From Naegleria gruberi (taxonomy: Eukaryota): 64,000 nt of DNA. Every line of letters starts with the position of its first letter. Within the stretch, counting starts at the first letter, position 1. The position numbers and the translations under genes were made by a program. Under the pieces are notes generated by a model. The model had not been told where the DNA came from and did not search any database. It saw nothing but the letters and a program-made list of their open reading frames with translations. Shown here in pieces: positions 47,934 to 50,275 of this stretch. Where the stretch lies: assembly GCA_000004985.1 (NCBI GenBank), contig GG738863.1; one strand, written 5' to 3'.

Positions 47934-50275
47934 ATGCCCAAAATTTCTCCCTCCAACGAAAAGCAAGATTTACTAAACAATCAAACCACCAACGATTCCT
48001 CAGACATTGTCCTTCCTAAAAAGAAGGTTTTCTTTGGTGGTTGCTTTTCCATGAGAATTGTAATAATCCTCCTCATTGTCTCCTTACTTTTTCTTTGTTC
48101 TTTATTTATTTGGTTGGCTTCGTTTATTGGATCGAGAACAGCTGTTAATGAGTTGACCACAAATTTGATCAATCAAGTTGGTAGAAAGATATTGGTCTTT
48201 TTGGAGAGCCAGATTGCACCTAGTTCAGGATTGGCAAAGAGCATTGCGTCAGATTTCAAGTTGGGAATTATTGATAGACAGCCACCACTTTCGTATTTGT
48301 TTGAGAAGAATAATATTTATAGACCATCGAGTGTTGGAGTGTTTTATCCTACTGAGATGTATGGTTACTTTAATTTGACATTCTTTACAAAAGGTTATCC
48401 AGAAGAAACTTTTACTGTTTATATCAAACATAGAGATTCGGTTGGTATCGAACAATGGAATGCGAGTGTTTCGACAGGTAGTTTACTGGATATTGTAGTT
48501 AATCAGACTACTCCTATAACTTGAAGATTTATGAAAGAGGGTATGTGTTAGTATCTGAACCTAATGACTTAGTTATTGGTGGTTCAATCAACACCACAGC
48601 CTTAGATAAGGTATCTCGAGTTCCCTTATTTAATTTGACAGATAAGGATTCAGGTATTTTGATGAGTGACATTCGATACAAATACGGAGGCGTTTCAAAA
48701 TCTCCAAGCACCTTTGAAATACAAAGTCTTGGAATTGATTACTATGTATCAAGAATGGAATTCAAATTAGAAAACATTGTTTGGAATGTTTTCCTTGTTG
48801 TCTACGCGGATGATATTTCCAGAACTGTGAATATTAACACTGCTATATCAGTAGGTGTTGCTGTATTTGTGATTATAGTTGGTTTATTGACAAGTGTCCT
48901 GATTGGATATATGATTACTGAGCCATTGAAATATTTAGAGAAACAATTTATGAAAATCAAAAAATTTGATTTAACAAGTGTTCATTTTACTTCGAGTAGA
49001 TTCAAGGAAATTGATGTCATGTACGAAGATTTGCATGAAATGGTAGTTTGGCTCAATGAATTCAAAAGCTTTTTACCAGAATCCATTTTTAACCAATTAA
49101 GGAATATGGAGAACTCATCTGAAAGCGGAGAAGAAACTCCAAAACAAAAGAATATGGAAAGCCAAGCCAGTGAATCAATCAAGAAACAAATCTCAACCAG
49201 AGAATCCAAAGATGGCATCGAAACATCAAGTAGACTTTCCTCCTCACACGACGGAAGTTTCCGAAACAATGAAGATCGAACCTCACTCTTCAAATTAGGA
49301 CTCTCAGAAAAGGAAGCAAGTATTGTCCTTGTAAAGATCTCTGAAATGTGTAAGAGCCTCTCCACAATTGAAATAGCTCAGTTATTTTCAAAGATTGCCT
49401 CTGGATTGAGCGCACTTGCAAAGACCATGCAAGCCGACTTGCAAATTCTTAGCATTGATCAATATCAGATATCATTCGTGACAGGAAAGAAGAAATCTAA
49501 CATTCAGGCTTTGGAAGCAGCTTTGAAAATATCCAAATCATTATCGAGCTTTTTATCAGATTATGAAAAATTGTCAATTTGTATTGGAATTACAACAGGA
49601 AAGGCCAATGTTGGAAATTTGGGAACCAATTCTTTGAGATTCTATTCGATTGTTGGTTCTCTACTTTCAAATGCTGAGAAATTATGTACATTGAGTAGAC
49701 ATTACAATATTCAAATTCTTGCAGATTCAAAATCTTTGGAATATGGCGCCAAAACTTTGTTTGTCACTCGTCCAATGGAAAGAATTGAGATAGAGAACGA
49801 AATTTTCCTTCCAAATATTTCAACAGTTTATCAGGTAATTAAGGAGAATTCATTCTCCAAAGATGAGTGGATGTAAGTTTCCTATTTTAAAACTGAAATA
49901 TTTTTCTTATTCGAAAGGTATGAATTGGAGCAACAAAAGGAAAATGTCAAGTACAAGAACTTTGAAAATGCATTCTCAGTATTTGAACAATTAGATTCGA
50001 ATAGTAATTCAGCATCCCTAGTAGAAAAAGTCAACCAATCCAAGAGTTTACTTTACGAACATTTAGAAAAATGTCCAGGAGATTCTCAAATCACCAACAA
50101 TGTTCTCAATTCATTAGATATGCTCTTTACAAAAGCTTATAATGGAAATATTGATTTAAGAAACGGTCTATTGAATTACAGAACTAGAATGGACCAGTCA
50201 ATGAGTAAGGTTACACAGGATAGCTCCTTCAATATTGTGGAAATATGCAACTCACAACATGTTAATAGTTGTTAG
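47934..50275 (+). CDS. Receptor-type class-III nucleotidyl cyclase-like protein (TM, then extracellular sensor domain, then TM, then a cyclase-homology domain, possibly degenerate); multi-exon
   Basis: TM1 reads RIVIILLIVSLLFLCSLFIWLASFI. An extracellular domain of about 250 aa with N-glyc sites follows. TM2 reads ISVGVAVFVIIVGLLTSVLIGYMI. The cyclase-homology segment reads ...SIVLVKISEMCKSL...QILSIDQYQISFVTG...ICIGITTGKANVGNLGTNSLRFYSIVGSLLSNAEKLCTLS...IQILADSKSLE. The frame break at 48521 is best explained by a about 62-nt intron (48478..48539). A second intron lies at about 49877..49918 (GTAAGT...GAAAG). Confidence 0.45.

What the first reader, a model, noticed from the sequence alone, without database searches (positions are those of the whole stretch)
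47934..50275. Receptor-type cyclase-like gene: two TMs bracketing an extracellular sensor domain, and a cyclase-homology domain with non-canonical metal-site residues
The architecture is TM, then an about 250-aa extracellular N-glycosylated domain, then TM, then a cytosolic cyclase-homology domain. This mirrors the sensor adenylyl cyclases of social amoebae, for example the osmosensing germination cyclase.

Where the first metal-binding Asp is expected (…FADIVGFT…) the sequence reads LVKISEMCK. The second reads SIDQYQI rather than TIGDAYM.

This could be a divergent active cyclase, a pseudocyclase-receptor, or a mis-alignment. In addition the two main ORFs are in different frames at 48521. A about 62-nt GTAGTT...AAAGAG intron restores the frame, joining ...SVSTG-G-YVLVSEPND.
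Basis: partly seen in the sequence, partly recalled or inferred. Interest (0 to 1): 0.5.

Follow-up and report, generated by a model that had tools for sequence, protein, structure and literature searches.

The report
Broken Naegleria sensor with dead cyclase domain

Summary
The window is Naegleria gruberi reference DNA. RefSeq splits the locus into XP_002678110.1 (196 aa) and XP_002678111.1 (491 aa, "adenylate cyclase 1-like").

The two TMs, ectodomain, cyclase-like domain, odd metal-site residues and the frame break near 48521 are all real. The proposed intron 48478-48539 is not an intron. A collinear metagenome contig (L003, 95-98% identical) carries the same gene as one open frame through that point. 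It holds 226 extra bases (3n+1), coding 75 codons that every paralogue conserves. The window therefore has an out-of-frame deletion at 48515|48516, followed by a stop at 48522-48524. It removes the core of the ligand-binding module.

dN/dS between the two alleles is 0.09, so the deletion is recent, allele-specific or an assembly error.

The second intron is real but lies at 49873-49917.

Structure prediction and fold search show a dCache ectodomain, not CHASE, and a class III cyclase fold followed by an unassigned helical bundle. Five of six catalytic positions are replaced; the second metal Asp (D488) is kept. The same degeneracy runs through a large family found mainly in Heterolobosea. The intact protein is most likely a receptor pseudo-cyclase.

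The parts
47934..48515 (+). 5' coding part: cytosolic N-terminus, TM1, stalk helix and first strands of the membrane-distal dCache module, up to the deletion junction
   Evidence: ORF 47934-48524 equals XP_002678110.1 exactly. It is 99% identical to aa 1-195 of the intact allele P0021 and aligns with all paralogues.
48057..48128 (+). TM1 (aa 42-65)
   Evidence: Kyte-Doolittle 19-residue means reach 3.1. The segment is conserved in the family. Coordinates.
48478..48539 (+). It is not an intron: coding sequence in two frames on either side of a deletion junction.
   Evidence: All 62 bases are identical in L003, where they lie inside one uninterrupted ORF. There they encode (G)SLLDIVVNQTTP... and ...LKIYER. 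Both stretches are conserved in paralogues. The donor is GTAGTT, against GTA[A/T]GT in six verified introns.
48515..48516 (+). Junction of a 226-nt (3n+1) deletion relative to the intact allele (L003 3157-3382)
   Evidence: The blastn alignment breaks here and exact-match extension gives the endpoints. The flanks share imperfect microhomology, ACTACTCC(T) and CTATCTCC. The missing DNA is nowhere else in the window.
48522..48524 (+). Premature stop (TGA) created by the frameshift
   Evidence: The ORF list and the sequence itself.
48516..49872 (+). Downstream coding part, with codons in register from 48518. It holds the membrane-proximal dCache module, TM2, the juxtamembrane helical linker, a low-complexity insert and the cyclase-homology domain.
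   Evidence: 98.7% identical to aa 268-722 of P0021. dN/dS is 0.07 against L003. RefSeq XP_002678111.1 starts inside it at MEFKLEN.
48842..48916 (+). TM2 (aa 283-307 of the spliced model)
   Evidence: Hydropathy and coordinates.
48917..49099 (+). Conserved juxtamembrane helical linker ending in the motif FLPESIFNQL. It looks HAMP-like and cyclase-transducer-like by eye only.
   Evidence: 75% mean column identity in the family. Neither Pfam nor a profile search of PDB finds HAMP or cyclase linkers.
49100..49282 (+). Ser/Lys/Glu-rich low-complexity insert between the linker and the cyclase-like domain
   Evidence: Variable in length and sequence among family members.
49283..49849 (+). Cyclase-homology domain with degenerate catalytic residues: K447 (49334-49336) for metal Asp 1, I484 for the substrate Lys/Glu, D488 (49457-49459) as retained metal Asp 2, S551 for the substrate Asp/Cys, S558 for the Asn, and K562 for the Arg.
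   Evidence: Pfam 17.9 bits. PDB profile hits at E about 1e-5. AlphaFold pLDDT 81 and Foldseek E 1e-11 to CyaB. Column counts in 169 relatives. Coordinates.
49873..49917 (+). Genuine spliceosomal intron: 45 nt, GTAAGT...AG, phase 2 inside the Met codon of DEWM|YELE
   Evidence: Splicing joins the frames and reproduces the RefSeq protein. The intron shows 3 mismatches and 3 gapped positions over its 45 nt against L003, while the coding sequence differs at about 1.2% of sites. Paralogues have an intron 7 nt upstream.
49918..50275 (+). Last exon. Together with 49862-49872 it encodes a family-specific C-terminal helical bundle; stop at 50273-50275.
   Evidence: The AlphaFold model shows helices at aa 196-219, 228-248, 250-271, 277-282 and 288-293 of the modelled fragment. 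The bundle is conserved across the family profile. It has no significant PDB or Pfam match.

Best explanation
The locus is one gene of a family, found mainly in Heterolobosea, of two-pass membrane receptors. In order, the protein has:
- a cytosolic N-terminus and TM1;
- an extracellular double-Cache (dCache) ligand-binding domain;
- TM2 and a conserved helical linker;
- a low-complexity insert;
- a class III cyclase-homology domain that has lost five of the six catalytic residues;
- a family-specific C-terminal helical bundle.

In this reference sequence the gene is interrupted by a 226-base out-of-frame deletion between 48515 and 48516. The deletion removes 75 codons, which form the core strands and helices of the membrane-distal, ligand-binding Cache module. 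It also creates a stop at 48522.

Shown here: the deletion, the folds, the residue replacements and purifying selection on the gene.

Inferred: how the intact protein works. It probably dimerises, binds a small extracellular ligand in the distal Cache module, and passes the change through TM2 and the linker to a catalytically inactive cyclase-like dimer. That dimer would act as a conformational relay or scaffold together with the C-terminal bundle, rather than making cAMP or cGMP itself.

The copy in the window can at best yield truncated products. The deletion is evolutionarily very recent. It is either a loss-of-function allele of the sequenced laboratory strain or haplotype, or an assembly error.
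For: Identity and annotation:
- ORF1 equals XP_002678110.1, and the spliced 3' part equals XP_002678111.1, both N. gruberi.

Deletion:
- All full-length relatives from Naegleria and Willaertia conserve a segment of about 77 aa between NQTTP and LKIYERGYV that the window lacks.
- P0021 on ENA contig L003 is the same locus, with the same MOSC and GFA neighbours and 95-98% nucleotide identity. It reads through in one 722-aa ORF.
- Exact endpoints give a 226-nt gap.
- The missing DNA is not elsewhere in the window.

Selection:
- 20 synonymous against 7 non-synonymous differences, dN/dS 0.09, similar on both sides of the break.
- The window copy departs from family-invariant residues no more often than intact members do: 2 of 75.

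Not an intron:
- The donor is GTAGTT, against GTA[A/T]GT in 6 of 6 verified family introns.
- 32 of 81 GT..AG pairs restore the frame.

Folds:
- Ectodomain model pLDDT 88. Its top 50 PDB matches are ligand-binding sensor domains of bacterial chemoreceptors and histidine kinases, the named ones dCache (E down to 3e-9).
- dCache_1 is hit in 18 of 50 family members, best E 4.9e-10.
- The deletion covers model residues 130-206.
- Cytosolic model pLDDT 81. Its top PDB matches are all class III cyclases.

Degeneracy:
- In 169 relatives the first metal-Asp column is K31, R24, T12, H11 and D only 6. The Asn and Arg columns are variable.
- More distant Percolomonas relatives still keep Asp/Asp/Asn.
Against: - No reads or transcripts of the sequenced strain were available. 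I cannot tell a real deletion from an assembly or cloning artefact, nor exclude that some transcripts use a cryptic GT..AG.
- Only one independent contig shows the intact allele, and it comes from a related but not identical organism (dS 0.043).
- Catalytic inactivity is inferred from residue identity, not measured. D488 and the phosphate-binding Arg (R548) are conserved, so nucleotide binding or an unusual chemistry is possible.
- HAMP was not detected.
- The role of the C-terminal bundle is unknown.
Confidence: 0.8

Rival explanations
1. One reading: a single intact gene with two introns (48478-48539 and about 49877-49918) encoding a 744-aa receptor with a shorter ectodomain.
For: The GT...AG pair exists and restores the frame without stops. 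The downstream part is under purifying selection.
Against: - The 62 bases are coding in the intact allele and in paralogues.
- The spliced product would lack 95 residues that form most of the distal Cache module.
- The donor is non-consensus.
- 32 alternative GT..AG pairs do the same job.
- The exact 744-aa product is absent from a collection of 15 billion proteins that includes transcript assemblies.
Confidence: 0.04
2. The deletion is an artefact of the reference assembly, from clone deletion or mis-joined reads. The real N. gruberi NEG-M gene is then intact, like L003.
For: dN/dS is 0.09, with no sign of relaxed constraint in the window copy. There is no independent sighting of the deletion junction: the exact-sequence look-ups of the deletion allele's products found only ORF1 from the reference assembly, and a metagenome scan with a 32-mer shared by both alleles found no further copy of the locus at all.
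Against: The junction is clean, with short imperfect microhomology as in real deletions. The flanks are unique sequence with no repeat that could cause a collapse. A long-cultured axenic strain could well lose a sensory receptor. None of this is decisive.
Confidence: 0.3
3. Two separate functional genes, as in RefSeq: a 196-aa membrane protein and a 491-aa single-pass 'adenylate cyclase 1-like' protein.
For: This is the current annotation. Each ORF is open.
Against: Both halves are collinear parts of one protein in every relative and in the intact allele. The 491-aa model starts arbitrarily at an internal Met, 29 aa before TM2. The split coincides exactly with the deletion.
Confidence: 0.05
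4. The intact protein is an active but divergent cyclase. It would work either as a homodimer using unusual residues, or as a heterodimer with a catalytically complete paralogue.
For: The fold is preserved, and D488, R548 and the GNLG loop are strongly conserved. Naegleria encodes many cyclase genes, 24-26 orthogroups or genes in PMC9928731, so partners exist.
Against: The first metal-Asp column is variable and mostly basic. The Asn, the Arg and both substrate-specifying positions are also lost. The domain therefore resembles neither the metal-donating nor the substrate-binding half of a heterodimeric cyclase. An insert of about 60 aa separates the linker motif from the domain.
Confidence: 0.2

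Closest known systems
Bacterial-type dCache-linked class III adenylyl cyclases, such as M. tuberculosis Rv2435c and the single Naegleria Cache-cyclase noted by Upadhyay et al. 2016 (PMC4822843)
   Same: An extracellular double-Cache sensor between two TMs, followed by a helical linker and one cytosolic class III cyclase-fold domain.
   Different: This family replaces five of six catalytic residues. It also carries a low-complexity insert before the domain and a conserved C-terminal helical bundle. Its Cache domain falls below Pfam's threshold, which may be why that paper reports the Cache domain in only a single Naegleria protein.
Dictyostelium ACG, the osmosensing germination adenylyl cyclase
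   Same: A two-TM receptor topology with one cytosolic cyclase-homology domain, which implies a homodimer.
   Different: To my knowledge ACG is catalytically active and its ectodomain is classed as CHASE. Here the ectodomain is dCache by fold and profile, and the catalytic residues are degenerate. No sequence relationship beyond the shared domain class was found.
Degenerate, non-catalytic cyclase-homology domains, such as the pseudo-symmetric second site of mammalian membrane adenylyl cyclases and the non-catalytic site of the soluble guanylyl cyclase heterodimer (own knowledge)
   Same: A class III fold retained while catalytic residues are lost, with the domain serving dimerisation or regulation.
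   Different: Those domains keep one complementary half of the active site and work in a heterodimer. This family lacks residues of both halves.
Trypanosomatid receptor-type adenylyl cyclases (GRESAG4/ESAG4; own knowledge)
   Same: A lineage-specific expansion within Discoba of membrane receptors with an extracellular bacterial-type ligand-binding domain and a cytosolic cyclase domain.
   Different: Those have a single TM, a periplasmic-binding-protein-like ectodomain and an active catalytic domain. No specific similarity was seen in the searches.

Membership tests
Class III nucleotidyl cyclase (cyclase-homology domain, Pfam PF00211) | Sequence match to the family profile above the curated threshold | tested here: not met
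   The window protein scores 17.9 bits and the intact allele 19.2 bits, against a cut-off of 21.9. Homology is still supported: the family profile hits many solved cyclases at E 1e-5, and 27 of 50 relatives hit PF00211, best E 2.5e-10.
Class III nucleotidyl cyclase (cyclase-homology domain, Pfam PF00211) | The beta-alpha-beta-beta-alpha-beta cyclase fold | tested here: met
   AlphaFold model pLDDT 81, pTM 0.82. Foldseek against PDB gives all top 50 as class III cyclases; the best is CyaB 3r5g at E 1.1e-11, TM 0.75.
Class III nucleotidyl cyclase (cyclase-homology domain, Pfam PF00211) | Two metal-binding Asp residues | tested here: not met
   The first is K447. That column is K/R/T/H and the like in relatives, and D in only 6 of about 126 residues. 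The second, D488, is retained; its column is D57, E18, N16.
Class III nucleotidyl cyclase (cyclase-homology domain, Pfam PF00211) | Transition-state Asn and Arg, and the substrate-specifying pair (Lys/Asp or Glu/Cys) | tested here: not met
   S558, K562, I484 and S551 stand at these positions. The columns are variable across the family.
Class III nucleotidyl cyclase (cyclase-homology domain, Pfam PF00211) | Cyclase activity | not testable with these tools
   This needs an enzyme assay.
dCache_1 (double Cache / PDC extracellular sensor, Pfam PF02743) | Profile match | tested here: inconclusive
   The intact allele scores 19.1 bits, E 0.001, against a cut-off of 45. Of 50 relatives, 18 hit dCache_1 (best E 4.9e-10) and 3 hit MCP-like_PDC_1. 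The window copy itself gives no hit, because the matching segment is deleted.
dCache_1 (double Cache / PDC extracellular sensor, Pfam PF02743) | Long stalk helix plus two stacked PAS-like modules, placed between two TMs | tested here: met
   This holds for the intact allele. Model pLDDT 88, pTM 0.85. The top 50 PDB matches are ligand-binding sensor domains of bacterial chemoreceptors and histidine kinases, including known dCache domains (mmHK1S-Z2, PctC, CtaA, Tlp3, Mlp24), at E 3e-9 to 6e-7. In the window copy, residues 130-206 of that model are missing.
CHASE-domain receptor cyclase (ACG-like) | CHASE ectodomain | tested here: not met
   There is no CHASE hit in Pfam for the window protein at E up to 10, nor among the 25 most frequent families in 50 relatives. 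The fold matches are ligand-binding sensor domains of bacterial chemoreceptors and histidine kinases, the named ones dCache.
HAMP linker | Profile match to HAMP between TM2 and the output domain | tested here: not met
   There is no HAMP hit for 14 linker sequences at E up to 10, and none in a profile search of PDB. The resemblance (Pro after the TM, FDL, KEID..L) is by eye only.
Spliceosomal intron at 48478-48539 | Sequence is non-coding and absent from the mature reading frame in relatives | tested here: not met
   The sequence is translated in frame in the intact allele and conserved at protein level in paralogues. It shows zero differences in 62 nt between the alleles, against 3 mismatches and 3 gapped positions in the 45-nt true intron.
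Spliceosomal intron at 48478-48539 | Consensus splice signals of the lineage | tested here: not met
   The donor is GTAGTT. Six verified introns of the family start GTAAGT (5) or GTATGT (1).
Spliceosomal intron at 48478-48539 | Spliced junction seen in transcripts | not testable with these tools
   No RNA data were available. The exact spliced product is not in the protein collection.
Long-standing pseudogene | Relaxed constraint (dN/dS near 1, several lesions) | tested here: not met
   dN/dS is 0.09, and there is a single lesion. The window copy alters only 2 of 75 family-invariant residues. The disruption is therefore recent or artefactual.

The most novel reading that the evidence does not exclude
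Heterolobosea, with distant relatives elsewhere in Discoba, carry a large and undescribed family of dCache-type (and other ectodomain) receptors. In these the class III cyclase domain would have become a catalytically dead signalling module, coupled to a new C-terminal helical output domain. That would make them a eukaryotic receptor pseudo-cyclase system that senses extracellular small molecules without making cyclic nucleotides.
Probability: 0.45. Interest if true: 0.55.

Novelty: new variant of a known kind. Interest (0 to 1): 0.35.

Why it matters
For annotation:
- Two RefSeq gene models (XP_002678110.1 and XP_002678111.1) are halves of one receptor gene broken by a 226-base deletion.
- Bridging a frameshift with a GT..AG pair gives a false protein.

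For biology:
- Double-Cache sensors are more common in Naegleria than the single case reported in 2016.
- They are attached to a cyclase-like domain whose catalytic residues have decayed across a family. The profile search found about 280 cluster representatives at E up to 1e-10, and about 5,000 at E up to 0.001.
- If these are true pseudo-cyclases, they are a tractable case of a nucleotide cyclase fold re-used for signalling without catalysis. They also point to unknown chemosensory inputs in free-living and pathogenic Naegleria.

Tried and rejected
- **Single-sequence searches.** Pfam and PDB searches of the window protein gave only sub-threshold cyclase hits. The answer needed family profiles and structure prediction.
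- **Sensor profile against PDB.** This found nothing meaningful. Only the fold search identified dCache.
- **HAMP and cyclase-transducer linker.** Not supported by Pfam or by a PDB profile search. The best hits were leucine-rich-repeat motifs and are spurious.
- **Calmodulin hits.** Weak matches to the C-terminal bundle (E 0.03-0.4) were rejected as helical or compositional noise.
- **Orthology and synteny.** The N. lovaniensis and N. fowleri homologues share no neighbouring genes with the window, so orthologues could not be assigned.
- **Genomic loci of N. gruberi paralogues.** These are not on record in the look-up.
- **More alleles.** A metagenome scan with a 32-mer next to the junction found nothing. 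A literature search for project PRJEB11402 also found nothing.
- **Transcript-derived products.** An exact look-up of seven conceptual products found only the unspliced ORF1.
- **AlphaFold-database fold search.** Not available.
- **Other copies.** A second copy or a relocated missing segment in the window was excluded.
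Full report
**What is at the coordinates**

The window is AT-rich eukaryotic DNA, about 33% G+C. On the + strand an ORF runs from the ATG at 47934 to a TGA at 48522-48524. A second ORF in another frame runs from 48521 to 49876, and a third from 49925 to the stop at 50273-50275.

It has two strongly hydrophobic segments, aa 42-65 and aa 283-307, and several N-x-S/T sequons between them. 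A search of the large protein collection shows that the window is Naegleria gruberi. The 3' part is 100% identical to "adenylate cyclase 1-like protein" XP_002678111.1 (491 aa). All 19 significant relatives come from Naegleria species, Willaertia magna or unnamed metagenome contigs. An exact look-up shows that the first ORF is a separate RefSeq entry, XP_002678110.1 (196 aa, "predicted protein"). The reference annotation therefore splits the locus at the frame break.

**The frame break is a deletion, not an intron**

I aligned the family. Every full-length relative has a conserved stretch of about 77 residues between the motifs NQTTP and L(K/S)L.G.GYVLVSE. Its consensus is ...YWVTSFKYFD..GVDGVYGDPYVV.NST.CIYYSAKLFDP...KKV.GI.KVNLSL..IE.FL... 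The window lacks this stretch.

The cluster that holds ORF1 contains a second member, P0021 (722 aa). It is about 99% identical to the window gene and reads through the break in a single ORF. Its contig is L003, an ENA metagenome assembly of 5271 nt. L003 is collinear with window 45301-50268 at 95-98% nucleotide identity and carries the same upstream MOSC and GFA genes.

Exact-match extension places the junction between window 48515 and 48516. L003 has 226 more bases there (3157-3382), which is 3n+1. The flanks share short imperfect microhomology, ACTACTCC(T) and CTATCTCC. The missing DNA is nowhere else in the window, and there is no second copy of the gene.

- The donor is GTAGTT. The six verified introns of this family, in N. 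lovaniensis, N. fowleri and the window, start GTAAGT or GTATGT.
- 32 of the 81 GT..AG pairs around the break restore an open frame, so a frame-restoring pair is expected by chance.

The second intron is real, but it lies at 49873-49917. It is 45 nt, GTAAGT...AG, in phase 2 within the Met codon of DEWM|YELE.

**How old is the lesion?**

Between the window and L003, the coding sequence has 20 synonymous and 7 non-synonymous differences. That gives dS 0.043 and dN/dS 0.09, with similar values upstream (0.09) and downstream (0.07) of the break.

The true intron shows 3 mismatches and 3 gapped positions over its 45 nt, and the 5' intergenic region about 4% divergence. The 62 bases of the supposed intron 1 show no difference. 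The window copy changes only 2 of 75 residues that are invariant in all other members, which is within the range of intact members.

The gene has therefore been under purifying selection for almost all of the time since the two alleles diverged. The deletion is very recent. It may be limited to the sequenced laboratory strain or one of its haplotypes, or it may be an assembly or cloning error. I could not separate these possibilities. No reads were available, and a metagenome scan for further alleles found nothing.

**The ectodomain**

Pfam gives only weak dCache_1 hits to single members, for example 19.1 bits for the intact allele. Across 50 relatives, however, 18 hit dCache_1 (best E 4.9e-10) and 3 hit MCP-like_PDC_1. 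None hits CHASE.

An AlphaFold model of the intact ectodomain was built from 13 aligned sequences (pLDDT 88, pTM 0.85). It shows a long stalk helix followed by two PAS-like modules. Its 50 best PDB matches are ligand-binding sensor domains of bacterial chemoreceptors and histidine kinases, the named ones dCache, at E 3e-9 to 6e-7.

The genomic deletion removes model residues 130-206. These form a helix, the core strands and the closing helix of the membrane-distal module. From general knowledge of dCache domains, that is the module that usually binds the ligand. Neither product could fold into a working sensor.

**The cytosolic part**

The window protein scores 17.9 bits against Pfam Guanylate_cyc, whose cut-off is 21.9. 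A profile of 14 family members hits many unrelated solved class III cyclases at E about 1e-5. These include a rhodopsin-guanylyl cyclase, photoactivated cyclases, soluble AC10, AC8 and CyaB.

The AlphaFold model of aa 430-744 (pLDDT 81, pTM 0.82) has the cyclase fold followed by a bundle of helices. All top 50 Foldseek matches in PDB are class III cyclases; the best is CyaB at E 1.1e-11, TM 0.75.

I mapped the six canonical catalytic positions in two ways: through the HMM alignments to solved cyclases, and through more canonical relatives from Percolomonas that still carry Asp/Asp/Asn. The result:

| Canonical residue | Residue in the window protein |
|---|---|
| Metal Asp 1 | K447 |
| Substrate Lys/Glu | I484 |
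| Metal Asp 2 | D488 (retained) |
| Substrate Asp/Cys | S551 |
| Transition-state Asn | S558 |
| Transition-state Arg | K562 |

Across 169 family hits the first-Asp column is K31, R24, T12, H11, N9, Q7, E6 and D6. The Asn and Arg columns are equally unconstrained. The second Asp (D57, E18), the phosphate-binding Arg (R113, K41) and the GNLG loop are conserved. The active site therefore decayed in the common ancestor of a large subfamily, not just in this copy.

Between TM2 and the domain lies a highly conserved helical linker that ends in FLPESIFNQL. To my eye it resembles a HAMP domain followed by the cyclase-transducer motif. Pfam and PDB profile searches do not support either assignment. 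A variable Ser-rich insert of about 60 aa then separates it from the cyclase-like domain. The C-terminal helical bundle is conserved through the family but has no significant match.

**Size and spread of the family**

A profile of the cytosolic part finds 5002 cluster representatives at E up to 0.001. Of these, 277 are at E up to 1e-10 and 48 at E up to 1e-30.

The sampled members come from N. gruberi, N. lovaniensis, Willaertia magna and Percolomonas, plus one diplonemid. Their N-terminal parts differ: dCache, EGF repeats, RCC1 repeats, ankyrin plus dCache, and a Bmp-like binding protein.

Upadhyay et al. [quoted passage not shown] The present family shows that divergent dCache receptors are more numerous there.

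**Most likely mechanism**

Shown: topology, folds, residue replacements, the deletion and purifying selection.

Inferred: the intact protein forms a dimer and binds a small extracellular ligand in the distal Cache module. It transmits the change through TM2 and the linker to a cyclase-fold dimer that cannot catalyse cyclisation. It signals through conformation, possibly with nucleotide binding at the remnant site, together with the C-terminal bundle.

The main functional rival is residual or heterodimeric cyclase activity, at about 0.2. The domain lacks residues of both complementary halves of a heterodimeric site, which argues against it.

For the window copy, the product is at best a 196-aa N-terminal fragment and perhaps an N-terminally truncated protein.

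**Verdict**

The receptor pseudo-cyclase idea holds. The intron, the ACG/CHASE likeness and the "second Asp lost" claim do not.

The locus itself is an ordinary broken or mis-assembled gene that is already in RefSeq as two models. The family it belongs to is a moderately interesting, apparently undescribed variant of receptor-type class III cyclases.

Noticed in passing
window 49873-49917; L001 about 12295-12352; L002 about 12449-12516: The last intron of the window gene, and of L003, lies in phase 2 inside the Met codon of DEWM|YELE. In N. lovaniensis P0002 and N. fowleri P0003 the intron is 7 nt upstream, in phase 1 (D|EWMYELE). Read-through 'DGK' in P0008 and P0011 indicates that the upstream position is the common one. 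The protein sequence is unchanged, and the window intron is flanked by GTA on both sides (AT[GTA]AGT...AAAG[GTA]TGAA). This could be intron sliding, or loss followed by regain.
   Followed up: partly
P0006 (N. gruberi, 1272 aa): This RefSeq model fuses a fucosyltransferase (PF00852) to a family member that lacks TM1. It is probably a chimeric gene model.
   Followed up: no
P0007 against P0009, and P0015 against P0016 (alignment): Two gene models lack 16-22 residues, within the part of the dCache segment deleted in the window, that their near-identical sister models contain. Predicted introns may be hiding lesions or assembly errors in other family members as well.
   Followed up: no
window 46870-47406 (+) and 50468-51916 (+): The neighbouring genes are a GFA-domain protein (glutathione-dependent formaldehyde-activating family, E 1.3e-14) upstream and an F-box protein downstream. 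The MOSC and GFA neighbours are conserved in L003. The loci of the N. lovaniensis and N. fowleri homologues share no neighbouring genes with the window.
   Followed up: partly
window 50255-50275 against L003 about 5120-5139: The two alleles end differently: ...NSQHVNSC* in the window and ...NSQPSK* in L003. This implies a small indel at the extreme C-terminus, which is poorly conserved in the family.
   Followed up: no
L003 (ENA ERZ929261, run ERR1078381, project PRJEB11402): A metagenome assembly contains a 5.3-kb contig from a close relative of N. gruberi NEG-M (dS about 0.04). Such contigs can serve as a second allele for checking the reference annotation.
   Followed up: partly
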